From: Escherichia phage vB_EcoM-Ro121c4YLVW
Sequence record: NC_052654.1
Length of the DNA stretch: 64,000 bases
Strand: one strand, 5' to 3'
A model generated the notes under the pieces. The model was not told the DNA's origin. It made no database searches and saw only the letters and a program-made list of their open reading frames with translations. The translations under genes and the position numbers were made by a program. Below, piece by piece: positions 2,801 through 59,297 of the stretch; the stretch's first letter is position 1, and every line of letters begins with the position of its first letter.

Positions 2801-2806
2801 AATGCT

Positions 2807-2884: not shown

Positions 2885-2891
2885 ATAATTC

Positions 2892-2977: not shown

Positions 2978-2983
2978 TTAATT

Positions 2984-3287: not shown

Positions 3288-3292
3288 TAATC

Positions 3293-3692: not shown

Positions 3693-3694
3693 TT

Positions 3695-3769
3695 TGGTGG
3701 CCCTGGCTGGTTTCGATCCAGCTACCTATCGGTTATGAGCCGACAGCTCTCCCATTGAGCTACAGGGCC
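3695..3769 (-). tRNA. tRNA with anticodon CAU (Met elongator or Ile2)
   Basis: Hand fold: acceptor GGCCCTG/CAGGGCC, D-arm GCTC-AATGGGAGA-GC, anticodon loop CTCATAA, T-arm GCTGG-ATCGAAA-CCAGC, CCA encoded. Confidence 0.65.
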
Positions 3770-44982: not shown

Positions 44983-45395
44983 CTTTCCTCCAGAAGTTGT
45001 TCAACAGTTTGACGAGTATGATTGTCCCAGTAAACCTTAGTGAAGTCAAGAGTCCCTTGTTCGTTTCTCTTAGTTTCGAAGAAGTATCCGCCTTCTCTTT
45101 CTACTCTGTCTCTAATGTGCTCTATAAGGTGCTTTTTACAAGATGCTGATAAACAATAGTCATACTCCCCACGAAGCAATGCTATAGCTGCAAGCCTGTT
45201 ATCACCAACTTGAGATATTGTCCAAGAAAGCATACTACCTTTTATACCTAAAGGTGTTTGTCGAATGGAATATCCACCATGCCGACTGATAGAAATTATG
45301 GCAAGTGGTTCTCCTGTTAGGGATCTTCCTAATGCACCTTCTGTTGGACTTCCTTCAATAACACGTTTGAAAAAAGCTTTGATCTTACCTAACAT
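44976..45395 (-). CDS. hypothetical protein
   Basis: ORF track. Confidence 0.45.
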   Translation of the reverse strand: MLGKIKAFFKRVIEGSPTEGALGRSLTGEPLAIISISRHGGYSIRQTPLGIKGSMLSWTISQVGDNRLAAIALLRGEYDYCLSASCKKHLIEHIRDRVEREGGYFFETKRNEQGTLDFTKVYWDNHTRQTVEQLLEERC

Positions 45396-45413
45396 AAGTC
45401 CCCCTTAAAAACT

Positions 45414-45548
45414 TACTTGTTTAAAGTATCTCTTACTTGTTCTGCTTGACGTTTAGTAATAAAAGTCCCAACCGAAACGTTAAATTCATTGACTACAGAG
45501 AACGATCCATCACGATTCTCACGAATATTAAACAATTTCTTACTCATT
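45414..45548 (-). CDS. small hypothetical protein (about 44 aa)
   Basis: ATG after GGAGGTAGAA. Confidence 0.25.
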
Positions 45549-45743
45549 TCTACCTCCTTCGATGCTTTGTGCCGTACCATCCCAAGCCATTAGAATATTT
45601 GCCAATAGTTCACGAGGCTCTTTAAACCAAACTTCCATTTCATCAAGAATCTCGTCCGTGTCGTAAGTATAACCTGGAACACCAAGTTCGCATTTCTTAA
45701 GATAGCTTTCTAACCAGCGGTGATAATTCTTAACCCCATTCAT
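45540..45743 (-). CDS. hypothetical protein
   Basis: ORF track. Confidence 0.4.
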   Translation of the reverse strand: MNGVKNYHRWLESYLKKCELGVPGYTYDTDEILDEMEVWFKEPRELLANILMAWDGTAQSIEGGRNE

Positions 45744-46068
45744 ACTGTGCTACCTTTTCTTTTACCCAATCTACACGATCTTTATCATAATGTTGAGTGC
45801 CAAGGAAAAGACCATTGTGGAAACTTTCCTCACCGAAAGGATAAATCGGATCTAAACCATCTTCTTCAAATAACATTTTTAGTCTCTGTGATGTAGATTT
45901 CTTAGTTTCTGAGTTGTAGTTTGTGGTTATAAGCCAATCTTCCAAACAACGACACAAACCTTGACGAGAATCCCAAGGAAAAACACAATCTCCGACAGGA
46001 GCTTGTTCAGCCCATTTCAACCAGCCTTTAAAAAAGTTATACAGTATGTAGTCTTCAGTGTAATACAT
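45730..46068 (-). CDS. paralogous family A member (GLCxCL / PF(N,G) / R-x-x-WVKDR motifs)
   Basis: Start moved to Met after AAGGAGGAG; shares motifs with five other ORFs in this block. Confidence 0.5.
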   Translation of the reverse strand: MYYTEDYILYNFFKGWLKWAEQAPVGDCVFPWDSRQGLCRCLEDWLITTNYNSETKKSTSQRLKMLFEEDGLDPIYPFGEESFHNGLFLGTQHYDKDRVDWVKEKVAQYEWG

Positions 46069-46119
46069 TATCTCCTCCTTTACGTATACAATAACACCCC
46101 GAAGAACGGGGTGCAACTG

Positions 46120-46731
46120 TTATTTAATCTGTTTGAAAATTTCGTTTGGAACGGTACCGTTTAAAATACCTTCTACGATCTCCTGTGCAGACGTGTAAGA
46201 GAGTCCAAAAGAAGCTACGCCTAAAATTGCCTCCTTCAAAGGATCTGGCAGGGGTTCAAAATTACCTGCAACAAAGCCACCTGCACAAGCAGCGCCTTCA
46301 TCATCCCAGAAAACAACTGCTACATCGTTACCATGCGAAGTTGTGCGATGTGCAATAACTTCAACTTCTGTTCCTTCTTTAGGAACAGAATAAGAACTGT
46401 CCCAAGAATATCTTTCCAAATCAGGAACAAAGATAACCTTTTCACCTACTGGCGGCAGTTCACAACGATAATACCAAGAATTTTTTTCGTTCATTGTTTT
46501 ATTTTCCTCCACGTCTTCAAAAGTAACGATCCAATCGTAGCCGTAAGAAAACGGATATTTTAGATCTAAAGAATAAGTTTGACCTAGATCGTCCTCAACA
46601 AGAACCATCCTGTCAAAGTTTGCGATGTTAGGATTATGTTTAATGATAGGGTATGTTTCCCCTACAGTAAATTGCCCCAAATGGTAAAGTTCATCTCTCC
46701 AAGTAATTTGGATATGAGTGCATTGAATCAT
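46120..46731 (-). CDS. hypothetical protein (203 aa)
   Basis: ORF track. Confidence 0.45.
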   Translation of the reverse strand: MIQCTHIQITWRDELYHLGQFTVGETYPIIKHNPNIANFDRMVLVEDDLGQTYSLDLKYPFSYGYDWIVTFEDVEENKTMNEKNSWYYRCELPPVGEKVIFVPDLERYSWDSSYSVPKEGTEVEVIAHRTTSHGNDVAVVFWDDEGAACAGGFVAGNFEPLPDPLKEAILGVASFGLSYTSAQEIVEGILNGTVPNEIFKQIK

Positions 46732-46735
46732 AAAA

Positions 46736-47008
46736 TCACCCCCAAGAAATATTTATATATCTTACAATGTTTGCACTGTCTAAAGCCATGTTTGCACCAC
46801 ACCCACGCTCGCGCCAGTAACTAACAATACCTTCACAGATACTCTCTTGTATCTTCTTATCACTTGGCATTTCTAGTATAAGACTTGGATTGTGGATGTT
46901 TATGTTATAATATCCTTCCTCTGCGGCTTGAGCTACCAATTTACTTACTTTTTCAAAGTACGGGGAATTAGTGGCATCTGCCATTGTTTTTAAGGTTTGT
47001 CTATCCAT
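46736..47008 (-). CDS. hypothetical protein
   Basis: ORF track. Confidence 0.4.
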   Translation of the reverse strand: MDRQTLKTMADATNSPYFEKVSKLVAQAAEEGYYNINIHNPSLILEMPSDKKIQESICEGIVSYWRERGCGANMALDSANIVRYINISWG

Positions 47009-47373
47009 TATTCTGCCTCATCATAGAAGAAATCCAACTCTTGTTCCAGTTGTTTAACTCGATCCTTAACCCACTGTACACGTTTTTCATTAAACATGCA
47101 ACGTTTTTCCTTACACTCTTGCTCAAAAGATTTTGCTGTGTTAAACGGGAAAGTTGTATCTAAACCAGCATTTTCAAAACTGGCTAATTGCATACCATAA
47201 ACAGAATATGCTAAAGAATGATCGGCTCGAAATTCATCACTTATATACATACGTAGACCTCGGCATAAGCCAACATCAGCGTAACCACTTTCTCGTGGAA
47301 AGAGACGGAGGTGTTCTAACCAATTATTATAGAAATCTAAAAGAATCCTCTTACACTTCAAATCAATTGTCAT
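47008..47373 (-). CDS. paralogous family A member
   Basis: Start moved to Met after GAAGGAGAAAC; motifs FYNNWL, GLCRGL, FPFN, VQWVKDRV. Confidence 0.5.
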   Translation of the reverse strand: MTIDLKCKRILLDFYNNWLEHLRLFPRESGYADVGLCRGLRMYISDEFRADHSLAYSVYGMQLASFENAGLDTTFPFNTAKSFEQECKEKRCMFNEKRVQWVKDRVKQLEQELDFFYDEAE

Positions 47374-47773
47374 AAAAAGTTTCTCCTTCATCGAACAAGT
47401 TGGCAAGATTGTTCACCGCAATTTGGGTGGAAAGAAGACAACTGTTTGCAGACACATAAGCACGGGCTATTTTGTAAACATAAGCTTTCGTATTGCAATC
47501 TTCTAAAATCGGAAGACTTTCATCGATAGCATCTATAACACTAAACATTACATCTAAAACTTTAATGGTGAGTGTTGTATTTGTATCTTCGTAACCTTTT
47601 TCAATCCGACCTGAATAGAAAGTATAGTCCTCAACAGTTCGTCGTTTAAATTGGCGCATAAAATCAGAACCATCTGTAGCAGAATTGAACAAATTTTCAA
47701 AAAATACCTCCCATCCGGCAAAAAGGGCTGACAGCATGATTAAGTGGTCTACAGATTCATTTTCTTGTTTCAT
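47363..47773 (-). CDS. hypothetical protein
   Basis: ORF track. Confidence 0.4.
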   Translation of the reverse strand: MKQENESVDHLIMLSALFAGWEVFFENLFNSATDGSDFMRQFKRRTVEDYTFYSGRIEKGYEDTNTTLTIKVLDVMFSVIDAIDESLPILEDCNTKAYVYKIARAYVSANSCLLSTQIAVNNLANLFDEGETFYDN

Positions 47774-47781
47774 ATCCTCTC

Positions 47782-48459
47782 CTATTTAATGTTCAATCTA
47801 GCACACAAGCGAGAAACAGTTTTAGCATCCCACTTACCACCACGTGCTGTTGCGATTTTCTTACTATTGAATTTTTCAGCAATAGTTTTGTAAGGTGTAT
47901 TTAAATCTCTAAGGATCTCCAAGCGTTCACGGAATGTCTCTGCAAAAGCGTCTGCTTTAACAGAATTGTATTCCATTTTTCCTTTTCTACGTGCAGCGGC
48001 AGTTTTAGGATTAGCACTGCCTAATAAAACACCTTTGCTTTTTGCTACAGCAAGACCCTTTTTAATACGATCAGCAATACCTCTGACTTCTTGTTCAGCC
48101 AGAACAGACAGAAGCTGTATAACCATTTTATCTGCATCTGGCATGATGGCTATCTTAACATCGATCATTTCTAGAAGAGTTGCTACGGAGGCGTTGTTAC
48201 GACCCAAGCGGTCAACTTTAGCTACCAATAAAGTTGCTCCGGTAGCTTTACACATTTCAACCGCTTTGACCAGTTCCTTACGTTGCTTCCAATCGCCCTT
48301 ACCCGAATAGTATTCAGAAAATTGACCAATAACTTCAGCATCAGGCACAGAGTCTAAGAAGTAACGGATATCGTTCTCTTGGCTCTCCATACCATATTGT
48401 GCCTCACCTTTTTTCTGTTTAGAAAGACGACTGTAAACAACAAACTTTTTCATAACCAC
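47782..48459 (-). CDS. small serine recombinase (resolvase/invertase family)
   Basis: N-terminal VYSRLSKQKK (catalytic Ser region), LLVAKVDRLGRN, C-terminal HTH-like basic tail; 225 aa. Confidence 0.7.
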   Translation of the reverse strand: MVMKKFVVYSRLSKQKKGEAQYGMESQENDIRYFLDSVPDAEVIGQFSEYYSGKGDWKQRKELVKAVEMCKATGATLLVAKVDRLGRNNASVATLLEMIDVKIAIMPDADKMVIQLLSVLAEQEVRGIADRIKKGLAVAKSKGVLLGSANPKTAAARRKGKMEYNSVKADAFAETFRERLEILRDLNTPYKTIAEKFNSKKIATARGGKWDAKTVSRLCARLNIK

Positions 48460-48482
48460 TCCTAAACCATTGCTGTATTCTC

Positions 48483-48511
48483 ACTTTACAAAACGAATAA
48501 ACACTTGTCAA
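48483..48511 (-). promoter_or_regulatory. sigma70-like promoter TTGACA-N17-TAAAGT driving the recombinase gene
   Basis: Direct reading on minus strand. Confidence 0.45.
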
Positions 48512-48523
48512 GGTATTTATTAT

Positions 48524-48736
48524 TTACAGCCATTCTACTTTTAAGCAGTATTCTTCGACATGTTGTTTACGCTTGTTTTTGTCTATGTAAGTGTATTCAA
48601 CAAATGTCCCAAGATAATCCTTGTCCACATTGTGTTGGCTATTAATTGGACATTTAGTACGACAAACCCGTTGCCACTGACGAAGAATTACGGCTTTGTT
48701 TTTAGGATCAAAGGGATGAGGGTAATGTGCCTTCAT
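48524..48736 (-). CDS. hypothetical protein
   Basis: ORF track. Confidence 0.4.
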   Translation of the reverse strand: MKAHYPHPFDPKNKAVILRQWQRVCRTKCPINSQHNVDKDYLGTFVEYTYIDKNKRKQHVEEYCLKVEWL

Positions 48737-49060
48737 TCACGCCTCCTGTTTTAGTCGAAAAATATTTTGAATAACTAGAGATGTATAGTTATCACTTAGT
48801 CCCATAAGTTCTACTTCCAAGTTTCGAATATCTTCCACCGTAGGAGGATATGTTGGTAAAAATGCTTGAGCATTGCCAGATCCGACCTCATTGCTGTAAG
48901 CAGTTGTAAAATTGTAAGATACAAAACATGAAACACCTTTTTGTCGGTACCCGATTAATCGACGAATACACCAGATAAGAGCCAAACCTATGAGAACACC
49001 TCCTAAACCAGCCAACAAGAAGGATAAGTTCATAATAGCTTCGTTAACAACTGCTTGCAT
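48737..49060 (-). CDS. membrane protein
   Basis: ORF track; TM helix. Confidence 0.4.
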   Translation of the reverse strand: MQAVVNEAIMNLSFLLAGLGGVLIGLALIWCIRRLIGYRQKGVSCFVSYNFTTAYSNEVGSGNAQAFLPTYPPTVEDIRNLEVELMGLSDNYTSLVIQNIFRLKQEA

Positions 49061-49070
49061 TCTTTTCTCC

Positions 49071-49418
49071 TTAGTTATGTAAACCCAAATGTGCTACAAC
49101 TTCTCTACGATAAGATAACTGCATAGCGATTTTATAGCCAGGATGAAAACCATTTACATCAATGTCATCAAACCAAACCTCAAACGAACCGTGCTTAAGG
49201 GTCATTAAGTTGATATACCATTCGATAGTATAATGATCGTTAGCAATACCTTCGATGTAAAACTCTCGGCAACAATGAGATAAATCTTCACTTGTTTCAC
49301 GTTTCCAGTCTTTGATAGCACCCTTCTCTTTAGCTTTATTCAGAATGTGGATCAGGTCTTCAACTTGCATATTCTCTCCTTTAGTTCCAACTAATAACGA
49401 TGTGTTTGATAATCCCAA
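49071..49418 (-). CDS. hypothetical protein
   Basis: ORF track. Confidence 0.4.
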   Translation of the reverse strand: MGLSNTSLLVGTKGENMQVEDLIHILNKAKEKGAIKDWKRETSEDLSHCCREFYIEGIANDHYTIEWYINLMTLKHGSFEVWFDDIDVNGFHPGYKIAMQLSYRREVVAHLGLHN

Positions 49419-49935
49419 AAATACTGTGCTCTGCGGTTGCCAATGTTACATCCAAACCTTTTGCACGTAGCATTGTAGCTACAACATTTGCCCCTCTTTT
49501 CTGTTCACTTATCTGTTCATAAGAAGAAGGGTTATTGCACAAACCAAAACTGGAAGGTTCAAAGTATTTTTCAAACTTCCCTTGTTCTGCACAATCTTCA
49601 ATCTCTAATAGAACGGCGTCTACCATTTCAGTAAAATGGGAATTTGCTTGCAGTGCTTTATTACGCAGTTTATCACGTAAACTTCCCGTAGATTCTTCCT
49701 GCTCTTCTGTCTGTCCATCTTCACAGAAAGGATGAAGTTCAGCCCAGTCCCAAGCATCTCCTTCTAAAGCAAATGGAGTGTTGTAATTGAAGAAAGTGCA
49801 GCGCGGATATTCCCCGTTGAAAGAATCTTTCAGCAGAATATATTTCTTACCGTTTGCATGGAAGAGTTCTCCTTTGATAACCTTACCTACAAGGATATCA
49901 CTGTTAGTGGAACGGGTGCAAATAAATTTTTTCAT
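49381..49935 (-). CDS. hypothetical protein
   Basis: ORF track. Confidence 0.4.
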   Translation of the reverse strand: MKKFICTRSTNSDILVGKVIKGELFHANGKKYILLKDSFNGEYPRCTFFNYNTPFALEGDAWDWAELHPFCEDGQTEEQEESTGSLRDKLRNKALQANSHFTEMVDAVLLEIEDCAEQGKFEKYFEPSSFGLCNNPSSYEQISEQKRGANVVATMLRAKGLDVTLATAEHSIFGIIKHIVISWN

Positions 49936-49997
49936 GATTTTCTCCTCTTTGTTTCGATGAGATGATTATGACAAAGACAGATCCTTCTGTCAACTAT

Positions 49998-50219
49998 TTA
50001 TTTCCATTCCCCTTGGTGTTCTTTGATCTCATAAGAGTAGTATTCGAACATGCTCATACAAACCACACCAGACATTTCTAAACAAAGAGGTTTACTATTA
50101 TAAAAGGCACTTATCATTCTTCCAGCTTTATCTGCTGACTCTTTAGTATCACATCCGCAAACTGTTCTCACCCAAGGATTAGGGCCATCATACTTAAGAC
50201 GCACAATCCACATGATCAT
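49998..50219 (-). CDS. hypothetical protein
   Basis: ORF track. Confidence 0.4.
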   Translation of the reverse strand: MIMWIVRLKYDGPNPWVRTVCGCDTKESADKAGRMISAFYNSKPLCLEMSGVVCMSMFEYYSYEIKEHQGEWK

Positions 50220-50443
50220 TCTTCCATCTCAAACCATTCAGGGAACACTTTGCGGAAGACCCGCGTGTTTTCTAAGAGAAATTCCAACTCTTTTTCCAAA
50301 TCTGCGTTCCAACCGTTTATTTTAACACGGATTGCCAATGCACTTGCACGGCGACTCAATTCTTGACAGATTGGATCACGCAGAACTATTGAGTCATAAA
50401 ACTGACAAACAGCCTCAAGTTCATACCAGTTATAATCCGACAT
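50216..50443 (-). CDS. hypothetical protein
   Basis: ORF track. Confidence 0.4.
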   Translation of the reverse strand: MSDYNWYELEAVCQFYDSIVLRDPICQELSRRASALAIRVKINGWNADLEKELEFLLENTRVFRKVFPEWFEMEE

Positions 50444-50769
50444 TATTCATCCTCCTCTGCAATACGATCTCTTACCCAATTAATCCTGTCCACGTTCAGG
50501 TGACATACCTCTGCATCTGATTCTAAGATATATGCATCGTAGTTCTCATTGAAAGGGAGTGCTTGACTCAACCCTTTGTGGTAAAACTGTGCGTGCATTT
50601 CATCTGACAAGATTGTTATAATGGGGTTGTAATTACCTCTGTGCACATAATCGAACAAGTTGGCACACAAACCACAATCCCGCCGAAAAGGTTTACCATC
50701 AGGAGCACCAACATCAATCCATGCTAGATAAATTTTATAAAACTCCATCAACCTTGTGCTTGTTTTCAT
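50443..50769 (-). CDS. paralogous family A member
   Basis: SD GAGGTGG; motifs FYKIYLAWI, GLCANL, LPFN, INWVRDRI. Confidence 0.5.
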   Translation of the reverse strand: MKTSTRLMEFYKIYLAWIDVGAPDGKPFRRDCGLCANLFDYVHRGNYNPIITILSDEMHAQFYHKGLSQALPFNENYDAYILESDAEVCHLNVDRINWVRDRIAEEDE

Positions 50770-51007
50770 TTAGCCACCTCGTTAGTTTTTCTTGCTCTTT
50801 GTTTGCGCGTTCTAAGCTTCTGAACTTTAAACAGAGGGAACGAGAATCCCTACCCATGCACAAGCTTTCATCTAAGCTGTGCTCCCCAACCAACCAAAGA
50901 GAGTATGTTTGAACATCTAACCCATAGTTTCTGTCTTTCCATAATCTCACCCCAAGAACATCAAAAGGAGCTTCCGCGACTAAAGAAAGAAACCGATCTT
51001 TATTCAT
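50735..51007 (-). CDS. hypothetical protein
   Basis: ORF track. Confidence 0.35.
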   Translation of the reverse strand: MNKDRFLSLVAEAPFDVLGVRLWKDRNYGLDVQTYSLWLVGEHSLDESLCMGRDSRSLCLKFRSLERANKEQEKLTRWLNENKHKVDGVL

Positions 51008-51069
51008 ATTACACCACCTTGCTCACGTTGATAATGTATGTATACCATACATAAAATAAATGTCAAGGC

Positions 51070-51270
51070 TTATCGACACAGATAGTTGTAACGATCTGCT
51101 TTATCCTCGGCTTCAGCAAAGTCAGCAATCAAGGAAGTTTTGAGTTCTTCCAACTCTTTCACCCAAGAGTCGTAATCGTTCTGTGTTTCTCCAATAGTTT
51201 GGAGAAAACAATCGTCGTAGCCAATAGACATGGCTAACTCGATAATACGTTCCAGTTTTTCTTCCATCAC
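51070..51270 (-). CDS. hypothetical protein
   Basis: ORF track. Confidence 0.4.
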   Translation of the reverse strand: MMEEKLERIIELAMSIGYDDCFLQTIGETQNDYDSWVKELEELKTSLIADFAEAEDKADRYNYLCR

Positions 51271-51629
51271 TTCTCTCCTTCTACAGACTTCTGTTTAACA
51301 TAAAAGTAAGCACCACGAGCAAGATACAAATCATGTTCAATATCGCTCACAGGAAAACCATCTGGATTTTTAAAACCGTCTTCTACAGCCAAAATGAGAG
51401 ATCGTAAACTGATAGCTAACAACTCCATTTGATCTTGTAGTTTTCTATTTTCTGCATAAAGGTTTTTGCATTTTTGTTCTGCATTTTTCCATTGTTCTAA
51501 TGCATGATCATAGTTTCGCATAAGGATAGCTTTTTCTTGTTCACGTTTAAAAGTTTCTTCACAAATGAAACCCGTGCCTAAACCAGTTTCTTCATCTTTG
51601 ACAAACACTTCAACAAAATCTTTAGACAT
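51267..51629 (-). CDS. hypothetical coiled-coil protein
   Basis: Start moved to internal Met after AGGAGATAAT. Confidence 0.4.
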   Translation of the reverse strand: MSKDFVEVFVKDEETGLGTGFICEETFKREQEKAILMRNYDHALEQWKNAEQKCKNLYAENRKLQDQMELLAISLRSLILAVEDGFKNPDGFPVSDIEHDLYLARGAYFYVKQKSVEGEK

Positions 51630-51630
51630 A

Positions 51631-51894
51631 TTATCTCCTATTTGCTTTTGGATACTCCCAACCCTCTGGGAGATCTTCTTTACACATCCACTCAAAAGGC
51701 CAGCGACAATAACTGTGCCACTTTCCATCGAGATACAAGCAATCTTCATCCACTGGTCCACAAGGGTTGATAACTACAACACACCCTTTTGCTCGCCAAT
51801 ATTGAACTATTTCAGGGTAAAAACAAGAAACGTCGGTCCACTCCCAAATACGTTCATCATTCAAACGGTATGCTGCTGGCAATGTCTCTTTCAT
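51631..51894 (-). CDS. Cys/Trp-rich hypothetical protein
   Basis: ORF track. Confidence 0.4.
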   Translation of the reverse strand: MKETLPAAYRLNDERIWEWTDVSCFYPEIVQYWRAKGCVVVINPCGPVDEDCLYLDGKWHSYCRWPFEWMCKEDLPEGWEYPKANRR

Positions 51895-51898
51895 ATTA

Positions 51899-52345
51899 TT
51901 AAACCTCTGTCAAAGAGAAACGCCAATCCTTACTACTACCTACACCAAGGAAGATATAGTCTCCGGTACTAACGGAATATCTCCAAGCGGGAATCCAATC
52001 AGGAATCTCTGGCTTATGGCTGTAGCCATAACGCTCGCCACTCGAATCTGTTGCAATATAATTAACAAATTCAGGAACCTCTAAAGTTTCACCTTGATAC
52101 TCTACACGCTTGAAGCCATCTTCCACTTCTTTCTCACCTTCTACCAGAAGGGCAAGAAATTTGATGTGAGGGCAAGTGAAATCTTGTCCTGGATAACGTG
52201 AACGGATATCTGTTAACAATGCGACTACAGCATCCGATAACTCTTTATAATCCTCATATCTTACAAATGTGCCTTCTGTCGGATCATCAGGACACAAACG
52301 CCAAACATCGTTGCAGTTTACAGCGTAATGTCTCATTTTAGTCAT
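51899..52345 (-). CDS. hypothetical protein
   Basis: ORF track. Confidence 0.45.
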   Translation of the reverse strand: MTKMRHYAVNCNDVWRLCPDDPTEGTFVRYEDYKELSDAVVALLTDIRSRYPGQDFTCPHIKFLALLVEGEKEVEDGFKRVEYQGETLEVPEFVNYIATDSSGERYGYSHKPEIPDWIPAWRYSVSTGDYIFLGVGSSKDWRFSLTEV

Positions 52346-52354
52346 AAATCCCCC

Positions 52355-52753
52355 TTATCGTTGCGTACAATCAGCTTCTAGAGTAAGAACATTCGTTATT
52401 GTTTTATCATTTTTTAGAAATGCAAACCAAGCCAAAGTGTCTCGATACTCTGTGCGCATCATTACTACTTCAGTAGTGCCAATAAATTGTTGTGAACCGT
52501 ACATAGCACTACCATCTTTACTTTTTTCTCCTGTGTATTGCAGAATGCCACTCATCAAAGCACCACCTGAATTTTTAAGGATAAAGGAGTTATCTTTATT
52601 AATGACAACAGAAGCCATTTTCTTAGGACCAGAAATCACTTCACCTTTCAGATTTTTAACAACCACATCTGACACACACTCATAAACTTGAGACGCATTT
52701 GCTGTTCCAAGTGATGCAACGAGTAGCAATAAACCTACAATGATCTTTTTCAT
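52355..52753 (-). CDS. secreted protein (signal peptide)
   Basis: ORF track; N-terminal MKKIIVGLLLLVASLGTANA. Confidence 0.45.
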   Translation of the reverse strand: MKKIIVGLLLLVASLGTANASQVYECVSDVVVKNLKGEVISGPKKMASVVINKDNSFILKNSGGALMSGILQYTGEKSKDGSAMYGSQQFIGTTEVVMMRTEYRDTLAWFAFLKNDKTITNVLTLEADCTQR

Positions 52754-52848
52754 ATAAACTCTCCTCTTTATTTACCCGACGCGCCCCTGTTGGGCGGAAA
52801 GGGTTGTACGCAAAATTTTTAGCTCCAATCGTCGGGTGTCCCGACTCC

Positions 52849-53055
52849 TTACGCTTTTAATGTTTTAACAGAATGACAAGCTTTGCAAACCATAACCGGA
52901 ACAAGTTCATCTCCATTATCCGCATAAATCACTGTTTTCTTCATTCTGCCACCGCATGAACAATACTCTGTATGATCCGCAGGAATATTAAATATTCCGT
53001 AATCACTTTCATACTGTTTCTTACATATGGACACTGCTTTCGTAAAACAAGACAT
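52849..53055 (-). CDS. small zinc-ribbon protein
   Basis: ORF track; CxC...CxxC. Confidence 0.4.
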   Translation of the reverse strand: MSCFTKAVSICKKQYESDYGIFNIPADHTEYCSCGGRMKKTVIYADNGDELVPVMVCKACHSVKTLKA

Positions 53056-53057
53056 GC

Positions 53058-53279
53058 CTACTCCGCAAGAACCTTCACTTCGTCAGAGAAGAATACGTAA
53101 TCACAACCTTCCCAAACATCTTCTTCAAACCACTCCCATCCCTCGACTTTGGACATTTCTTCTATCGTAACAAAGAATGTTGTCATATCCTCACTAACAA
53201 GATGTGCTTCAACAACAAAAGGAATCTGAACATTCTCAAAACCAACATAACCCAATACATCACAAACTCTAATTTTCAT
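53058..53279 (-). CDS. paralogous family B member (MKIR..., W-x-W-F-E-E, DYVFF)
   Basis: ORF track; similar to 56571..56792. Confidence 0.45.
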   Translation of the reverse strand: MKIRVCDVLGYVGFENVQIPFVVEAHLVSEDMTTFFVTIEEMSKVEGWEWFEEDVWEGCDYVFFSDEVKVLAE

Positions 53280-53280
53280 A

Positions 53281-53481
53281 TTATGCTCCTTTGTAGATTA
53301 TGTTGGTGCGTTCACACTCTGCCACCAGCAAGCGATTAGCAATGTTGTCCATAGGAACATCAATCTCTACGCTCCAAGCGTTGATATACACTTCTTCAAT
53401 CTTTGCTCCAAGCATTTGTGCGATCAGAGCAACAGCGCCAGCATACTCAAGTTTAATCTCAATTACCATTTTGCACCTCAA
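53281..53481 (-). CDS. hypothetical protein
   Basis: ORF track. Confidence 0.4.
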   Translation of the reverse strand: MRCKMVIEIKLEYAGAVALIAQMLGAKIEEVYINAWSVEIDVPMDNIANRLLVAECERTNIIYKGA

Positions 53482-53483
53482 GG

Positions 53484-53720
53484 TTATTTGTCTTGCTTGT
53501 ATCTTACAAGGCGATCACACTCCAGGTCAAGAAATTTCTCCGCATTTCGTTCATGTTTGAGCACAATACATTGTTCTTTCCAGTCTGTAGCTCTTTGCTG
53601 CGCTGCTCCTGGGTCAAAATCCCAAAGCCATGCCGCGAAAAGAACAACCATAACAATTACCAAGAAACTAAACACTATTGGCATTGCACATCCTCCTGTG
53701 TAGCATGATCTTTTACCCAT
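53484..53720 (-). CDS. small membrane protein
   Basis: ORF track; TM helix. Confidence 0.4.
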   Translation of the reverse strand: MGKRSCYTGGCAMPIVFSFLVIVMVVLFAAWLWDFDPGAAQQRATDWKEQCIVLKHERNAEKFLDLECDRLVRYKQDK

Positions 53721-53989
53721 TTTATACGGGCAGCATTCAAATGCAATAGCCCGTTTCTTTGTGCAAAATCATATTTAAACCAGTCTCCGTCATCAAACGG
53801 GTATTCTTCAGACAATCCTGCTTCTCGAAATTGCATTTGCATTTCATAATTTAGGTCATCATAACCACCAGACCAAAGATAGAGGCAACTGCACAAACCT
53901 TTATCGTGCCAGAAAGGATTATTATCTGGAGCACCAGCTAACAGCCAATTATGATAGGCTTGATAAAATTCTTTAAGTTCTTCTGACAT
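53675..53989 (-). CDS. paralogous family A member
   Basis: SD AGGGGG; motifs FYQAYHNWL, GLCSCL, YPFD, IKWVKDH. Confidence 0.5.
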   Translation of the reverse strand: MSEELKEFYQAYHNWLLAGAPDNNPFWHDKGLCSCLYLWSGGYDDLNYEMQMQFREAGLSEEYPFDDGDWFKYDFAQRNGLLHLNAARIKWVKDHATQEDVQCQ

Positions 53990-54187
53990 TTAACCCCCTG
54001 TGTACAGTGTTGAAAGATACACAGCAAAAGCATTCTCGGCTGTTTTAACCTCCTCTTCAAGATCTTCACGCTCTGCTGGCGTTAGCGCATTTCGCACAGC
54101 AGCGTCTGCTTCTCGGATTTTTCTTACTAAACGTGAAACATCTTTCAGTTGTTGAAAAGTAGCCATAATCTTCCTCCTTTTAGTCAA
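53990..54187 (-). CDS. hypothetical protein
   Basis: ORF track. Confidence 0.4.
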   Translation of the reverse strand: MTKRRKIMATFQQLKDVSRLVRKIREADAAVRNALTPAEREDLEEEVKTAENAFAVYLSTLYTGG

Positions 54188-54479
54188 ACCAGTTGTATTC
54201 GGAAGGGTAACGAGCGTAGTTTGGCTTGTACCCCAGTCTTTTCATCTTAACAGACATACGAGTGAAGCCAAAGGTTGTTTTGCCCTTAGACATAAACTTC
54301 TTCCCACTCTTCATTGGCTTCTTAGGGTTTTTGATCGTCTGGTGTAACGCTCGCGCAAGCCACAAAGTGTATGCGCTCGGCACTTGATTAACTTTCATCT
54401 TGTTACCTTTCATCGAAACCTCCTCAGTGAACTTCGTGCCAAGTGCCAAACTCTTCTGCTGATACTTTAGGAACGGCAT
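54180..54479 (-). CDS. hypothetical basic protein
   Basis: ORF track. Confidence 0.4.
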   Translation of the reverse strand: MPFLKYQQKSLALGTKFTEEVSMKGNKMKVNQVPSAYTLWLARALHQTIKNPKKPMKSGKKFMSKGKTTFGFTRMSVKMKRLGYKPNYARYPSEYNWFD

Positions 54480-54651
54480 GAGTTTCTCGGTATTTGTTTA
54501 AAGCTTTCTCAATGGCTGTAGCAAAAACATCTTGTGATTTATAAGGCATATAATAAGAGCGTCCCATGTATGCCACTGCATCACGTAATTCTTCTGCTTG
54601 CTCTTGTGTAACTGTCAATGTGATAGTAACCATTATTTCACCTCCGACCAA
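54424..54651 (-). CDS. hypothetical protein
   Basis: ORF track. Confidence 0.35.
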   Translation of the reverse strand: MVGGEIMVTITLTVTQEQAEELRDAVAYMGRSYYMPYKSQDVFATAIEKALNKYRETHAVPKVSAEEFGTWHEVH

Positions 54652-54932
54652 TCAATAGTGATCCACTCGTATGCCCCGTTCAGATCCATTTCTTTATAAA
54701 CAATAAGCCCACGCTCACGAAGAATTGCTACTGCTTCATCCATCCACTTCACCTGATTGTAGATCTCCCCTGGGTGGGTAGGGGAATTATCCAGACCAAA
54801 ATCAGATGGCGTGAAATTTCTTGAAGAGTTTCCCGCTCGTGCTTCAGCAAAACATGTCTCGATCACTTCTTCAACAGGGAAGTTGAAGGAAGCTTCTTTT
54901 GCAATACGGCGTAACTGTTCGGTCAGATTCAT
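54633..54932 (-). CDS. hypothetical protein
   Basis: ORF track. Confidence 0.4.
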   Translation of the reverse strand: MNLTEQLRRIAKEASFNFPVEEVIETCFAEARAGNSSRNFTPSDFGLDNSPTHPGEIYNQVKWMDEAVAILRERGLIVYKEMDLNGAYEWITIDWSEVK

Positions 54933-54959
54933 TTTATTCTCCTTTCGTTGTGCGAAACA

Positions 54960-55397
54960 TTACAGCAGATCTAATGCTTTCAACTCTTCTTTCAATGATT
55001 CAGGCAGGTCACATTCAATGTCAATCAGAGATAACAAGTGACCAACAATGCCTTCCAGATGTTGATACTCACTATAACTTATAAATTCAGAATTGTAAAC
55101 AGAAACATCCTTAGTTTCTTTCACAACTTCCCCCGCAGACACGCACATAAAAAAGTTACGCTCTCCGCGAGCTAACAATATCTCCCAACTTCTGAACGGA
55201 TACTGTCCAGCTTCAATAATATCTCCGCTGTCCAATAAGGTCAATGAGCAAACAGACCCTGATTCACTAACATCTTCGACGCGGAAACAAGACCCTTCAA
55301 TCAAAGCTGCCATTTTGAAATTTTCATCAGAGATCATAGAGAAAGCTTCACATGCAGCTTTGCTTTTGAAACAGTAAACAGCATTAATTTTAAACAT
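54960..55397 (-). CDS. hypothetical protein
   Basis: ORF track. Confidence 0.45.
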   Translation of the reverse strand: MFKINAVYCFKSKAACEAFSMISDENFKMAALIEGSCFRVEDVSESGSVCSLTLLDSGDIIEAGQYPFRSWEILLARGERNFFMCVSAGEVVKETKDVSVYNSEFISYSEYQHLEGIVGHLLSLIDIECDLPESLKEELKALDLL

Positions 55398-55409
55398 AAC
55401 ATTCTCCTT

Positions 55410-55868
55410 TTAAACAAAAGATACGCCGATGGTAGCAACAACCAAACGTTTATAAACTTCAACCTCTTCTGTAGGATTAGCCATTTTATGCTCCGCTGCT
55501 TCTTTCAAAGCTTCTTCATAATTTTGAGATCCAGAAATACAGGTGTCACCAGTCATTACAACATACCACTCTTCTTTTGTTGTATCAACAGGTTCTTCTT
55601 GGGGTTTTCCACGACCACCACGAACACCACCGTCAACAAAATAATCTATATGAGCAGAATTGATTATGTAACGATCCCCATCACCAGCAGTGATAATACC
55701 ATCTCTCATACCTATTACAACCATTGACAAGATATTACCATTTGCATCAGTGCTCAACACCTCGAAAAAATTCTCTCCAATGATAGCCGCAATACTGTTA
55801 TCAAAGGTAGAATATAGTCGCATATAATCCTCATCCTGGAAACGGTAGACATGACCTTCTTTAAACAT
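55410..55868 (-). CDS. hypothetical protein
   Basis: ORF track. Confidence 0.45.
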   Translation of the reverse strand: MFKEGHVYRFQDEDYMRLYSTFDNSIAAIIGENFFEVLSTDANGNILSMVVIGMRDGIITAGDGDRYIINSAHIDYFVDGGVRGGRGKPQEEPVDTTKEEWYVVMTGDTCISGSQNYEEALKEAAEHKMANPTEEVEVYKRLVVATIGVSFV

Positions 55869-56322
55869 TGCTCTCTCCTCCTAGTTCATCATACCATTTC
55901 AAAGCGTCTTTTGGAAGCATACCAAAATCTTCTTTTAGCTCTTTTTCAATCTCTTCTTGCATTTCCATCAGCATTTTCAATTGACGGACTTTTTTGTGCA
56001 TAGCCACATTCCTTTCATTAAGGTTTGTCACTACATTATTTGCACGACTCGGTGGAAACGACAAAGGTTTCACGGGAAGATAATCTTCGATATTATCTAG
56101 TGCGTTACGAAAATTATGATCCAAGAAACGCACATCTACACGATTGTAATCGGCAGCTACAACAGTGAACACTTTAAACGGCACATTGGATAAAGTATGT
56201 TGCACACAGACAGTACCCATATTACCTTCAATTTTACTGGTAACTTCCAGCACACCTGTATGAGCACTAACATAATCGTGAACACATTGCACATAGGCTG
56301 CCAGTATAGTGAATTGTCTCAT
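55861..56322 (-). CDS. hypothetical protein
   Basis: ORF track. Confidence 0.45.
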   Translation of the reverse strand: MRQFTILAAYVQCVHDYVSAHTGVLEVTSKIEGNMGTVCVQHTLSNVPFKVFTVVAADYNRVDVRFLDHNFRNALDNIEDYLPVKPLSFPPSRANNVVTNLNERNVAMHKKVRQLKMLMEMQEEIEKELKEDFGMLPKDALKWYDELGGESNV

Positions 56323-56567
56323 TTTCTACCTCCCCATAATGCTAACATTTTATTGAAAATGGAAACGCGTCGTGCGCGAGATGCCATATCATAATTCATT
56401 CTTTCCGTCTCTGCAAGAAATTGATCTACGGTAATCAACGCTTTTGTCTTCTCTTTCAGAGTTTGCATATTCATCCATTCACATTCAGAGTACCAATTAT
56501 CGAAATACAAACTATCGAGAAGATCCATTGCTGCTTCATTCTGTTGTGGTGTGATCATTGCACACAA
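56319..56567 (-). CDS. hypothetical protein
   Basis: ORF track. Confidence 0.4.
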   Translation of the reverse strand: MCAMITPQQNEAAMDLLDSLYFDNWYSECEWMNMQTLKEKTKALITVDQFLAETERMNYDMASRARRVSIFNKMLALWGGRK

Positions 56568-56570
56568 CCC

Positions 56571-56792
56571 TTAATAGACAATTTCATATTCGTGAGGAAA
56601 GAAAACATAATCTTCCCCTTCTCGTGCATCTATCTCGTCCCAAAACCATTCCTGCACTTCCATCATCTTCGAGAATCGCACATGAGCAAGCCCACTGTAT
56701 TCCACCGTAGCTTCCAACACAAGTGGGAATTTTGCACGGGTAAGTCCTTTATAACCACCATCATTCTCAATACGAATTTTCATGCGTTTCAT
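56571..56792 (-). CDS. paralogous family B member
   Basis: ORF 56571..56801 with probable start at second Met; MKIRIENDGG...VQEWFWDEID...DYVFF. Confidence 0.45.
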   Translation of the reverse strand: MKRMKIRIENDGGYKGLTRAKFPLVLEATVEYSGLAHVRFSKMMEVQEWFWDEIDAREGEDYVFFPHEYEIVY

Positions 56793-56793
56793 G

Positions 56794-57003
56794 TTATGCA
56801 TCCTTCAGACCCTTAATAAAGTAACGACCAACCGGATTCCCTCGGAAGTATTCGTTAATGAAATCGATAACACACGTTTCACTGCCTGTCACAACGGACG
56901 GCTTAAAGTTTTGGAATTCTACAGCTACACGGCTGGCTTTAGCCAGTGCTTGCACACGTGTAGGATCAGTCAAGAACATTGTGACAGTTTTCAAATTCTT
57001 CAT
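56794..57003 (-). CDS. hypothetical protein
   Basis: ORF track. Confidence 0.4.
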   Translation of the reverse strand: MKNLKTVTMFLTDPTRVQALAKASRVAVEFQNFKPSVVTGSETCVIDFINEYFRGNPVGRYFIKGLKDA

Positions 57004-57052
57004 TTCATCTCCTCATTGGCTATCTGCTATGTCATCCATTATACAAACATCT

Positions 57053-57436
57053 TTATTCAATGCAAGCATTATTTGCATCTTCAATGCGATCTTTCACCCA
57101 TTGCACACGAAACTTGTTGGTATGACACGCTAAAGCTATACACTCTGAAAGGTAATCCATGCAATCTGCATTGAACGGAAGATTGTAGTCCAGCCCTGCA
57201 CATGTAAATTGTTTCCTCATTTCATATTTCAAACGGTCTAACAAATGATCACGCCATCTTCTATCTTCTTCTCTAGTTGTCTCACCAACAAAATCATCTA
57301 CATAGTCTACCAGACAACCACATAAGCCACTCGTTGTGCGATTCATTGCAGGATAGTTGGCAATCCATGCTTTATAGAAGCGAAGCAATGTTGCACTACT
57401 CAACGGAATACTATTTGTCATTTTTCTCTCCTTCAT
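57053..57436 (-). CDS. paralogous family A member
   Basis: SD AAGGAGAG; motifs FYKAWI, GLCGCL, LPFN, VQWVKDRI. Confidence 0.5.
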   Translation of the reverse strand: MKERKMTNSIPLSSATLLRFYKAWIANYPAMNRTTSGLCGCLVDYVDDFVGETTREEDRRWRDHLLDRLKYEMRKQFTCAGLDYNLPFNADCMDYLSECIALACHTNKFRVQWVKDRIEDANNACIE

Positions 57437-57755
57437 AATCTTGAATTCTATCTAGCACCCATTGTATACGATGTTTGTTTTTATGGCAAATATGTTTTTT
57501 ATGTTCGAAGGTGTATTCCTCATAACCACCTTCATTAAACGGGAAATTGTAATCCAATCCTGCACCAATAAACTGTGATTTCATCTCCTGTTGTAGACGA
57601 GGTAACAGTTCATCAGGATATGTTCCCTCTACATACTTAATCAAACATATGCACAAACCACTCGTTGTGTGACCTTCTACCTCACCAGCAAGCCAAGCTT
57701 TGTAAAACTTCATTAGACGTAAACTGCTCAACGGAACATTTTTACTCTTTTGCAT
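57411..57755 (-). CDS. paralogous family A member
   Basis: SD GAGGAGA; motifs FYKAWL, GLCICL, FPFN, IQWVLDRI. Confidence 0.5.
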   Translation of the reverse strand: MQKSKNVPLSSLRLMKFYKAWLAGEVEGHTTSGLCICLIKYVEGTYPDELLPRLQQEMKSQFIGAGLDYNFPFNEGGYEEYTFEHKKHICHKNKHRIQWVLDRIQDYEGEKNDK

Positions 57756-57759
57756 GACA

Positions 57760-59270
57760 ATCTCCTCTCATCGTTAGCCATCTTTCATGGCAATCATCAA
57801 TCACCAACATCATACGATCAATCTTAGGGAATTACAATCGAATTATCATAGGGGATTCCTATCAATTATCCCATATATACCGATTATTTTTGACACCCCA
57901 CTCTTGTATAAAAAGTAACCCAAAATATCTACGGGGAGAGATTATTTCGGGACACCCTGTTTCATAGCAATCATGGCAAGAATATCTAATAGAATCAATA
58001 TGATATGGCAAAAATCATGGCGCATACGTAAGAAGTGCTTAACGCGAATTTTCGGGCCGTCAGGTCCACGCAGCGACAATTCCCAAATATCATGCGAATG
58101 AGAATAATTATCATTCGTATTCAATGACTTATGCAAGGCTCATGCCAACATAGCGACAAGGTGGGCCACTTGATTATAAATCACACAAACACTTATTTAT
58201 CAATGGTTTGGCAACTTCATCATATGACGGAACAATGTCAACTGATCCCGCTCATGACAAGCAGACTATTATTTATATGAGAATGATTATTATTTAAACG
58301 TTTATTAACATATAAACTAAAATAAATCAAGAATTTTCTGATTTTATTTACGTTTAAGAGAAGGTGCTCAACATATCGCTACGCGATAGTATTCGCCCCC
58401 AAAAGATTAGCCTTTATTTTCTTGTATGTTTATACACTGCGTGTACATCTATGTGCACACTATGCAACCTGTCGCTATTCGCTCATGTTGCTACGTGCAA
58501 TTATTCATCTTGCTAATGATTTCATATTGTAACTATTACAATGACTATTGTTATTGCGCTAATGTTATGATCTTGGTAATTACATATAATGCTAATAATA
58601 AGCCAGCGCAATAAGTGTAAGCGTCATTACGCTTGCAATTATTGCAAGCTACGCAGTAACAAGAAATAACCGTCACCGATGGTTATGATTGTTGGGGTGT
58701 AGTTGGCTTATTATTAGCTCGCTATGTGTCCGGCATAGCGTGCTAATGATGACTCTGTGAATGATTCGTTTTGTAATGATTTCATTCAGGCACTATTTTG
58801 CTAATAGTTATTATTTTAATGGTTTCGTTTGTTATTGTTCGTTAGTTGGTTGTTTTGTCGTGTTATCGTTATCTTGCTTAGTATTCATCATGGTTTGATT
58901 GTTTGTCATTATCAATCATCTTGCTATTATTCCTTTGATTATGATTAGTTTGCTTATTGTTTTAGGTTGTTGGTTGGTTAGTTGTTGCGAACTATTATCA
59001 ACATTATAGTTATGCACTTATATTGCATAGATAAACATGGATAGATGATAATGGTTATCATTGCACCAGAAAGGAGGTAAAAGGGTGTTTTTGATGGTTT
59101 GTTGTTGGTTGTTGATCGATTTTAACCGCTTTAAATGGCTCTCTAACAGCCTGTTACCCTGGGAGGTATGGTTATTCATTTAATGGTTGATTAGCTTGAT
59201 ACCACTATTTATTCAGTTTTGTTCTGTGTCGGTTTTCCATAGGCGGAATCTATCAACATTGTTCGGGCAA
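57760..59270. repeat. 1.5-kb non-coding, repeat-rich region (GCTAAT-type short direct repeats, palindromes, G+T-skewed tract)
   Basis: No credible ORF; repeated gctaatg / gtaatgatttcat / ttgttattg motifs; palindromes aagcgtcattacgctt and cttgcaattattgcaag; long GT-rich tract 58800-59000. Confidence 0.5.
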
Positions 59271-59297
59271 AAAGAAAGGGCGCTTGGTGCGCCCCTT
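59271..59297 (-). terminator. intrinsic terminator GGGCGC-ttggt-GCGCCC + TTTCTTT (minus strand)
   Basis: Direct reading. Confidence 0.55.

What the first reader, a model, noticed from the sequence alone, without database searches (positions are those of the whole stretch)
45730..57755. Six-member paralogous family of small proteins (about 105-130 aa) scattered through the minus-strand block
ORFs ending at 46068, 47373, 50769, 53989, 57436 and 57755 share an ordered motif set: F-Y-x-x-(W/Y)-(L/I) near the N-terminus, G-L-C-x-C-L, an aromatic-rich segment with (Q/K)-F, (Y/L/F)-P-F-(N/D/G), and a C-terminal R-(V/I)-x-W-V-(K/L/R)-D-R-(I/V). Each has its own strong SD, and sequences outside the motifs are highly diverged. 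Repeated duplication and diversification of a small protein inside a hyperplastic block of early genes is the pattern expected for host-takeover or anti-defence effectors. I do not recognise the fold or family.
Basis: seen in the sequence. Interest (0 to 1): 0.8.

Follow-up and report, generated by a model that had tools for sequence, protein, structure and literature searches.

The report
Six-copy N4 gp3-like early phage proteins
The six small genes are real, diverged copies of one gene family that is widespread in phages of Proteobacteria (it includes gene 3 of coliphage N4), sits among the first genes at the genome end, has a confidently predicted helical fold unlike any solved structure, and has no known function.

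Summary
Six minus-strand ORFs encode collinear homologues that are 24-51% identical. Each matches PHROG family phrog_2510 on its own (E 1e-25 to 1e-31). No other ORF in the window, and no other ORF in 148,000 of the 149,471 bases of the closest relative, belongs to the family.

The window is a Phapecoctavirus (phAPEC8-like myovirus). The family is large: about 1,700 clusters at 50% identity. Where its source can be seen it is phage-borne. It is unnamed in Pfam and NCBIfam, and it includes coliphage N4 gp3.

AlphaFold gives a compact five-helix domain (pLDDT 94). This model has no match among solved structures, but it matches uncharacterised proteins of many phages.

Family genes lie in early or left-end gene blocks. 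Here, two of them are the first genes after the probable genome terminus. Copy number changes between near-identical phages (6, 7 and 9), and natural two- and three-domain fusions are common. Orthologues are under purifying selection (pN/pS 0.12), the same as their neighbours.

The function is not shown. My best inference is an early, host-directed binding effector. A database label, 'anti-restriction nuclease', fails the test: there is no similarity to T4 Arn. The finding is a good target for experiments, but not a surprise in kind.

The parts
45730..46068 (-). Family member 1, 112 aa (orthologue of phAPEC8 gp211). It is the most divergent of the six.
   Evidence: (phrog_2510 E 4e-27). pI 4.7.
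47008..47373 (-). Family member 2, 121 aa (phAPEC8 gp214). It has Met in place of the usually conserved His before the N..R..WV motif.
   Evidence: (E 2e-26).
50443..50769 (-). Family member 3, 108 aa (phAPEC8 gp222). This is the protein whose structure was predicted.
   Evidence: (E 3e-31). AlphaFold2 model with pLDDT 94.4 and pTM 0.87, five helices.
53675..53989 (-). Family member 4, 104 aa (phAPEC8 gp233). It is the most acidic (pI 4.5, net charge -10).
   Evidence: (E 9e-29).
57053..57421 (-). Family member 5, 122 aa (phAPEC8 gp244). The start is corrected from 57436 to 57421. It is the second gene after the non-coding gap and the tandem partner of member 6 (51% identical).
   Evidence: (E 6e-25).
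57411..57755 (-). Family member 6, 114 aa (phAPEC8 gp245). It is the first gene of the minus-strand block, directly after the non-coding gap.
   Evidence: (E 6e-26).
50005..50147 (-). Site where a seventh member is missing. These 143 bp stand in place of 449 bp in phAPEC8 that carry most of gp219 (a family member, 106 aa) and part of the neighbouring gp220. Phage phiWec179 also has this member.
   Evidence: Breakpoints from blastn. HMM scans.
57756..59275 (.). A non-coding gap of about 1.5 kb upstream of the block. It probably holds the physical genome terminus and the early promoters. It is bounded on its far side by a terminator-like hairpin at 59297-59275.
   Evidence: At least ten GenBank records of relatives begin or end at positions that map to window 58115-58440. 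In phi92 the equivalent block starts just after the 343-bp left terminal repeat. No Rfam family and no notable repeats were found.

Best explanation
The six genes are paralogues of a phage-restricted protein family, best called N4 gp3-like (PHROG phrog_2510 and its satellites).

Each encodes one soluble domain of about 100 residues. The domains are mostly acidic and rich in aromatic residues, and fold as five helices. The domain has a conserved interior and a conserved, mostly polar group of residues in its C-terminal half (Y80, E83, H90, N92, R95, W98, D101, R102, plus the invariant P72-F73 loop and C35). The outward faces of the helices are almost free to vary.

The genes lie at the end of the genome that, by analogy with N4 and T7-like phages, is expressed first. 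The two tandem copies are the first genes after the probable terminus.

My inference is that these proteins act by binding, soon after DNA entry, to host proteins (host takeover or counter-defence). On this view the shared core and patch provide a common scaffold or a common contact, and the variable surfaces give each paralogue its own target. They probably work as dimers or pseudo-dimers.

What is shown: the homology, the predicted fold, the distribution in phages, the position in genomes, the copy-number turnover, the natural fusions and the purifying selection. What is inferred: the time of expression in this phage, binding as the mode of action, the host as the target, and dimerisation.
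For: Homology and size of the family:
- The exhaustive profile search found 1,704 representatives at 50% identity with E<=1e-3, and 694 with E<=1e-10.
- N4 gp3 is a member (E 2e-21). GenBank notes on phages JWAlpha and PhiW-14 link their copies to N4 gp3 and to phAPEC8.

Fold:
- The single-domain model has pLDDT 94.4.
- Foldseek against viral models gives 17 matches at E<1e-3, all uncharacterised phage proteins, with TM-score up to 0.87.

Phage-only distribution:
- tblastn finds 256 phage records and 631 places.
- It finds a single plasmid hit, on a non-mobilizable plasmid that carries phd/doc and dUTPase genes and looks like a phage-plasmid.
- Metagenomic contexts are blocks of small unknown genes.

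Early or left-end position.

Copy number:
- Six in the window, and six in the 148,000 of 149,471 bases scanned of the closest relative, 536P1.
- Seven in phAPEC8, nine in phiWec179 and two in phi92.
- One member-sized indel was mapped.

Fusions:
- 21 of 185 retrieved proteins have two or three family domains.
- The model of a two-domain protein is compact (pLDDT 92, pTM 0.82).

Selection: pN/pS is 0.12 for the family and 0.10 for its neighbours.

Conservation pattern.

Charge: the six have pI 4.5-7.0, and the family median is 5.2.
Against: - No experiment, and no homology to any characterised protein, bears on the function. No paper on N4 gp3 or this family was found in ten literature searches.
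- The many conserved polar residues, with an invariant Cys and an invariant Arg, fit a shared catalytic or ligand-binding site at least as well as a simple binding scaffold.
- Orthologues do not evolve faster than their neighbours.
- The phi92-like phages tested in the BASEL study are very sensitive to restriction systems and to the Fun/Z system. phi92 itself carries two members. So any counter-defence activity is not broad.
- The model coordinates could not be inspected. Whether the conserved residues are buried or exposed therefore rests only on helical periodicity.
Confidence: 0.45

Rival explanations
1. The domain is a small enzyme. An invariant cysteine at the N-terminus of helix 2 (C35) would act together with H90, N92, E57, Q61 and R95 to modify or cleave a host target covalently. 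Paralogues would differ in substrate, and a few would be inactive.
For: - C35, R95, P72 and F73 are invariant in 123 diverse members.
- E57, Q61 and N92 are conserved at 90% or more, and H90 at 77%.
- In two-domain fusions, R, P and the first-domain C are invariant and the second-domain C is kept in at least 90% of sequences.
- In helices 4 and 5 the conserved face is offset from the hydrophobic face by 79-105 degrees, which suggests a conserved, partly exposed patch.
Against: - H90 is not invariant. Member 47008-47373 has Met, and others in the family have Tyr or Phe.
- A five-helix domain of 100 residues with no strands is an unusual frame for a Cys-His enzyme.
- The distances between these residues could not be measured.
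Confidence: 0.15
2. The proteins are sponges for small immune-signalling molecules. They would oligomerise and sequester cyclic nucleotides or ADP-ribose derivatives made by host defence systems. Different paralogues would take different signals.
For: - The proteins are small, probably early, phage-only and multi-copy.
- Tandem fusions suggest that the working unit has at least two domains.
- Conserved polar residues lie on the inward faces of helices and could line a pocket.
Against: - No structural match to any solved protein was found, and the libraries searched hold solved phage proteins of many kinds.
- No PADLOC or Pfam relation was found.
- Nothing in the data points to a ligand.
Confidence: 0.1
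3. The proteins are anti-restriction proteins of the T4 Arn or DNA-mimic kind, as two database entries for orthologues of members 2 and 5 are labelled ('Anti-restriction nuclease').
For: - The label appears on CAM6581850.1 and CAM6585526.1.
- Most members are acidic.
- The genes are the first at the genome end, as ocr is in T7. That comparison rests on established knowledge of T7, not on a test here.
Against: - There is no similarity to T4 Arn. hhalign gives probability 0.05%, and hmmsearch gives E 1.4.
- No solved structure of any kind came up in the fold or sequence searches.
- The net charge, -0.1 to -10 per roughly 110 aa, is far below that of DNA mimics. That comparison is from my own knowledge of Ocr.
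- phi92-like phages tested in BASEL are exceptionally susceptible to type I, II and III restriction systems, and phi92 carries two members.
- Every other named member I read is 'hypothetical' or 'uncharacterized'.
Confidence: 0.06
4. The proteins serve the phage's own programme, for example as cofactors of early-to-middle transcription or of replication, rather than acting on host proteins.
For: - N4 gp3 lies directly after gp1 and gp2, the cofactors of N4 RNA polymerase II. The N4 review also says that an unidentified protein is needed at middle promoters.
- In the T1-like phage Sf12 the member lies between replication and repair genes.
- Purifying selection matches that of the neighbouring genes.
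Against: - The family occurs in phages with quite different transcription strategies: N4-like, T7-like, T1-like, rV5/phi92-like and PhiW-14.
- Most members are acidic, which argues against DNA binding.
- A copy number that runs from 1 to 9 and changes between near-identical genomes is not what a core regulatory factor would show.
Confidence: 0.12

Closest known systems
Coliphage N4 gp3 (YP_950481.1) and its N4-like homologues
   Same: It is a member of the same family (profile E 2e-21). It is 104 aa with the same collinear motifs (FL..Y..WL, GLC, LPFN, CHLN..R..W). It lies in the early left-end region, between gp2 and the RNA polymerase II genes.
   Different: N4 has a single copy, while this phage has six. 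No function has been described for gp3 in the N4 review I read, so the link gives a name and a time of expression, not a mechanism.
PHROG families phrog_2510, phrog_6418, phrog_27059 and phrog_2176
   Same: All six proteins match phrog_2510 strongly. Of 123 diverse members, 123, 118, 101 and 49 match these four families respectively.
   Different: All four are annotated 'unknown function'. The phrog_2510 profile is 219 positions long because it includes two-domain fusions, and the window proteins cover only one half of it.
T4 Arn (the protein the 'anti-restriction nuclease' label refers to; an inhibitor of McrBC)
   Same: It is a small, acidic phage protein, and two orthologues here carry the same name in one E. 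coli assembly.
   Different: No sequence or profile similarity was found, and no solved structure matched the model. I judge the label to be an annotation error.
T7 Ocr (gp0.3), as a functional analogy only
   Same: It is the first gene at the genome end that enters first, and it is small, acidic and helical. This comparison is from established knowledge of T7.
   Different: No homology was found, and no solved structure matched the model at all. The charge density here is much lower, and this family is multi-copy.

Membership tests
N4 gp3-like family (phrog_2510 group) | Significant profile match over the whole domain | tested here: met
   All six match phrog_2510 at E 6e-25 to 3e-31. With the family profile, N4 gp3 scores E 2e-21 and the six score E 1e-25 to 2e-37.
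N4 gp3-like family (phrog_2510 group) | Collinear conserved residues: L7, F10, Y11, G33-L34-C35, E57, Q61-F62, L67, P72-F73, N92, R95, W98-V99 | tested here: met
   C35, P72, F73 and R95 are invariant across 123 sequences that include the six. The other listed residues are conserved at 90% or more. Some of the six depart at E57 or Q61 (members 1 and 2) and at N92 (member 1 has Asp).
N4 gp3-like family (phrog_2510 group) | Same predicted fold as other members | tested here: met
   The model of member 3 matches BFVD models of homologues from Rhizobium, Burkholderia, Achromobacter, Delftia, Pectobacterium and Klebsiella phages (TM-score 0.79-0.87, E down to 3e-7). Only one of the six was modelled.
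N4 gp3-like family (phrog_2510 group) | Expression in the early phase of infection | not testable with these tools
   Only the position supports this: the genes are next to the probable terminus, and the N4 member lies in the early region. No transcriptome was found.
T4 Arn-type anti-restriction proteins | Sequence or profile similarity to T4 Arn | tested here: not met
   hhalign gives probability 0.05%. hmmsearch with the family profile gives E 1.4.
DNA-mimic anti-restriction proteins (Ocr, ArdA) | Very high density of negative surface charge, and fold similarity | tested here: not met
Phage proteins of solved structure, including signal-sponge proteins | Fold or sequence similarity to any solved structure | tested here: not met
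Any Pfam, NCBIfam or PADLOC family | A match above the curated threshold | tested here: not met
   Nothing reaches threshold for the six. In the Pfam scan of 123 members, no family was matched by more than 2 members.

The most novel reading that the evidence does not exclude
The N4 gp3-like domain is a new fold class of immediate-early phage effector. Its invariant Cys/Arg-centred site would carry one shared chemistry or one shared contact, either an enzymatic modification or the recruitment of a host machine. Its hypervariable faces would retarget that activity. The six to nine paralogues of Phapecoctavirus would then form an arsenal that disables several different host immune or housekeeping factors, and the single N4 copy would be the minimal version.
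Probability: 0.2. Interest if true: 0.75.

Novelty: new member of a known kind. Interest (0 to 1): 0.45.

Why it matters
The family is one of the larger pieces of phage 'dark matter'. It has about 1,700 clusters at 50% identity. It occurs in at least six unrelated groups of lytic phages of Alpha-, Beta- and Gammaproteobacteria. It has a confident predicted structure that resembles nothing solved.

It sits where phages keep their first-strike genes, and it is gained and lost between near-identical genomes. That makes it a well-defined and cheap target for experiments. N4 offers a single-copy knockout, Phapecoctavirus offers a natural series of 6, 7 and 9 copies, and four invariant residues are ready for mutagenesis.

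If the family proves to be a counter-defence or host-takeover module, it would annotate thousands of genes at once. If it proves dispensable, it is an ordinary accessory family.

Tried and rejected
- Pfam, NCBIfam and PADLOC scans of the six proteins, and a Pfam scan of 123 members, found nothing.
- The AFDB50 fold library was not available.
- The 'Anti-restriction nuclease' label was followed to T4 Arn and rejected.
- A second word-indexed homologue search with a broad alignment returned fewer hits than the first.
- Domain fusions were uninformative. There was one fusion to DUF551, and the other extensions have no Pfam match.
- I looked for a conserved partner gene next to members in several phages and saw none.
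- Promoter-like sites are not enriched over shuffled sequence (57 against 47 +/- 6.6), so they say nothing about timing.
- The 1.5-kb gap holds no Rfam family and no notable repeats.
- Ten literature searches found no functional study of this family.
Full report
**What is there.**
The window is part of a Phapecoctavirus genome (a phAPEC8-like myovirus of Escherichia, subfamily Stephanstirmvirinae). The region 45000-58000 is 98.4% identical to Phapecoctavirus 536P1 and 97.0% identical to phAPEC8. It matches 177 phage records in all.

In phAPEC8 they correspond to gp211, gp214, gp222, gp233, gp244 and gp245, all annotated as hypothetical.

Their products align collinearly, with 15 invariant columns. 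Pairwise BLASTP E-values run from 6e-4 to 4e-20, and identities from 24 to 51%. The adjacent pair 57053/57411 is the closest.

Each protein on its own matches PHROG family phrog_2510 at E 6e-25 to 3e-31. A profile built from the six finds only the six among all six-frame ORFs of the window. A broader family profile finds six copies, and no more, in the 148,000 of 149,471 bases scanned of 536P1.

One correction is needed. The fifth ORF most likely starts at 57421, behind GAAGGAGAG, which gives 122 aa as in phAPEC8. It does not start at the SD-less ATG at 57436.

**How big the family is, and what it contains.**
An exhaustive HMMER search of 1.84 billion representative proteins found 1,704 with E<=1e-3 and 694 with E<=1e-10.

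tblastn finds the family in 256 phage records, at 631 places. The hosts include Escherichia, Klebsiella, Salmonella, Erwinia, Rhizobium, Achromobacter, Ralstonia, Delftia and Xanthomonas.

The plasmid collection gave a single hit, on a non-mobilizable plasmid that carries phd/doc and dUTPase genes and looks like a phage-plasmid. The metagenomic contigs that carry members look like phage early regions, made of blocks of small unknown genes.

The most useful link is this: coliphage N4 gp3 (104 aa) is a member (E 2e-21). GenBank notes on Achromobacter phage JWAlpha ('similar to phAPEC8_0044 and gp3 of N4') and on Delftia phage PhiW-14 had already connected these proteins.

No source gives a functional name, apart from two entries of one E. 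coli assembly that are labelled 'Anti-restriction nuclease'. I tested that label against T4 Arn, the protein that the name refers to. hhalign gives a probability of 0.05%, and hmmsearch gives E 1.4. The label is not supported.

**Structure.**
AlphaFold2, run with a 31-sequence alignment, gives a confident model of the 108-aa member (pLDDT 94.4, pTM 0.87). It has five helices, at residues 5-19, 34-42, 50-64, 77-85 and 93-107, and two long ordered loops.

Against solved structures:
- Foldseek finds nothing with E<=1e-3.
- A sequence profile of 123 members finds no PDB chain even at E<=10.

Against predicted viral structures there are 17 matches at E<1e-3 (TM-score up to 0.87). All are uncharacterised phage proteins.

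Pfam, NCBIfam and PADLOC recognise nothing. The four related PHROG families are all of unknown function.

**Conservation.**
Across 123 diverse members:
- C35, P72, F73 and R95 are invariant.
- L7, F10, Y11, G33, L34, E57, Q61, F62, L67, N92, W98 and V99 are conserved at 90% or more.
- S4, L38, M58, A65, G66, N74, Y80, E83 and H90 are conserved at 70-90%.

Thirty-seven of the 108 positions carry almost no information.

In helices 1-3 the conserved face coincides with the hydrophobic face (2-43 degrees apart), as expected for a bundle core. In helices 4 and 5 the conserved face is offset by 79-105 degrees, because of conserved polar residues (E83, N92, R95, D101, R102).

I read this as a conserved core, a possibly conserved polar patch in the C-terminal half, and freely varying outer faces. 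I could not inspect the coordinates, so this reading rests on sequence periodicity alone.

The six proteins have pI 4.5-7.0 and net charge -0.1 to -10. The family median pI is 5.2. The window proteins are soluble by hydropathy (GRAVY -0.43 to -0.77).

**Position in genomes.**
In the window the block of about 40 small minus-strand genes begins at 57755, after a non-coding gap of 1.5 kb. At least ten independent GenBank records of relatives start or stop at positions that map to window 58115-58440.

In phi92 the equivalent block starts just after the annotated 343-bp left terminal repeat, and gp006 and gp010 are family members. So the two tandem copies are very probably the first genes at a physical genome end.

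In podovirus-size records the family lies 0.4-6.5 kb from the left end:
- In N4 it is gene 3, at 1214-1528, between the early genes gp1/gp2 and the RNA polymerase II genes gp15/gp16.
- In JWAlpha it is gene 8.
- In Rhizobium phage RHph_N37 it is genes 2 and 3, and gene 3 is a two-domain fusion.

In the T1-like phage Sf12 it lies among small genes between the helicase/VRR-NUC genes and an exonuclease gene.

Early expression in this phage is therefore inferred from position, not shown. I found no Phapecoctavirus transcriptome.

**Dynamics.**

| Phage | Copies found |
|---|---|
| Window and 536P1 | 6 |
| phAPEC8 | 7 |
| phiWec179 | 9 (three in tandem at the left end) |
| phi92 (left 22.7 kb) | 2 |
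| PhiW-14 (12-kb stretch) | 3 |
| N4 (left 9 kb) | 1 |
| Sf12 (10-kb stretch) | 1 |

The missing seventh copy in the window is a clean indel. Window 50005-50147 replaces 449 bp of phAPEC8 that carry most of gp219 and part of gp220.

Twenty-one of the 185 retrieved proteins are fusions of two or three family domains. The model of one two-domain protein is compact and confident (pLDDT 92, pTM 0.82). This suggests, but does not prove, that single-domain members pair up.

Between the window and phAPEC8, family orthologues have pN/pS 0.12 (47 synonymous and 24 non-synonymous differences). The other block genes have 0.10. The genes therefore encode constrained proteins. Change happens by gain, loss and replacement of genes rather than by fast point substitution.

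**Surroundings.**
Among the ten largest neighbouring proteins I scanned, the only recognisable one is a serine recombinase/resolvase (47782-48459). The others match PHROG families of unknown function.

The block holds further small paralogue sets:
- 49381-49935 with 54633-54932.
- 53058-53279 with 56571-56801.
- 54960-55397 with 55410-55868, which both match phrog_3710.

**Interpretation.**
The family identity is well supported. It can be summed up as N4 gp3-like, phage-restricted, with a five-helix fold unlike any solved structure, left-end position, multi-copy and subject to turnover.

The function is not known. I commit, at about 45%, to an early-expressed effector that acts by binding, probably as a dimer, to host proteins. 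On this view the variable faces set the specificity of each paralogue.

The main alternatives are a small Cys-dependent enzyme (15%), a phage-internal regulatory cofactor (12%) and a sponge for immune signals (10%).

An Arn-like or DNA-mimic anti-restriction role is unlikely (6%), for three reasons:
- There is no similarity to Arn.
- The negative charge is only modest.

**Novelty and score.**
The genes are members of a family that is already catalogued (PHROGs, GenBank cross-notes) but has never been characterised. Multi-copy families of small accessory genes are a familiar feature of large phages. I therefore file this as a new member of a known kind.

I score interest at 0.45. It is a solid, well-delimited target with an unexplored fold and a model-phage handle (N4 gp3), but it is not surprising in kind, and I have no evidence on its mechanism.

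Noticed in passing
window 57756-59275: A non-coding, AT-rich gap of about 1.5 kb lies between a terminator-like hairpin (59297-59275) and the first gene of the block. Many GenBank records of relatives begin or end inside it, at positions that map to window 58115-58440, so it probably holds the genome terminus or terminal repeat and the early promoters. No Rfam family and no strong repeats were found.
   Followed up: partly
window 49381-49935 and 54633-54932 (possibly also 46736-47008): This is a second paralogous pair in the same block (E 6e-8, 31% identity). Both proteins end in an I.I.W motif. A 90-aa ORF ending in 'YINISWG' may be a third member, but it is not BLAST-significant.
   Followed up: partly
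window 53058-53279 and 56571-56801: This is a third paralogous pair of proteins of about 75 aa (E 2e-10, 37% identity), of unknown function.
   Followed up: no
window 54960-55397 and 55410-55868: These adjacent genes both begin with MFK and both match phrog_3710 (unknown function). They look like another tandem duplicate.
   Followed up: partly
window 47782-48459: A serine recombinase/resolvase gene (Pfam Resolvase, E 5e-18; PHROG 'DNA invertase') sits in the middle of the block of small unknown genes, between family members 2 and 3. Its role in a lytic myovirus is not obvious.
   Followed up: partly
window 49965-49993: This is the best sigma-70-like site inside the block (TTGACA, 17 nt, CATAAT, with a TG extension; 11 of 12 matches). 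It overlaps a short palindromic hairpin (49976-49991) and lies about 10 bp from the breakpoint where the seventh family member is missing.
   Followed up: no
window 1757-3769: A cluster of ten tRNA genes lies on the minus strand (Met x2, Ile, Pro, Gln, Gly, Thr, Asn, Ser, Arg).
   Followed up: no
window 53484-53720: This 78-aa ORF has a strongly hydrophobic N-terminal segment (IVFSFLVIVMVVLFAAWLW). Its start overlaps the 3' end of family member 4 by 46 nt. It may be a small membrane protein translated by coupling to member 4.
   Followed up: no
database entries CAM6581850.1 and CAM6585526.1 (orthologues of window 57053-57421 and 47008-47373): One E. coli assembly, which evidently contains phage contigs, names these proteins 'Anti-restriction nuclease'. 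They show no similarity to T4 Arn, so this looks like an annotation error that could spread to other records.
   Followed up: yes
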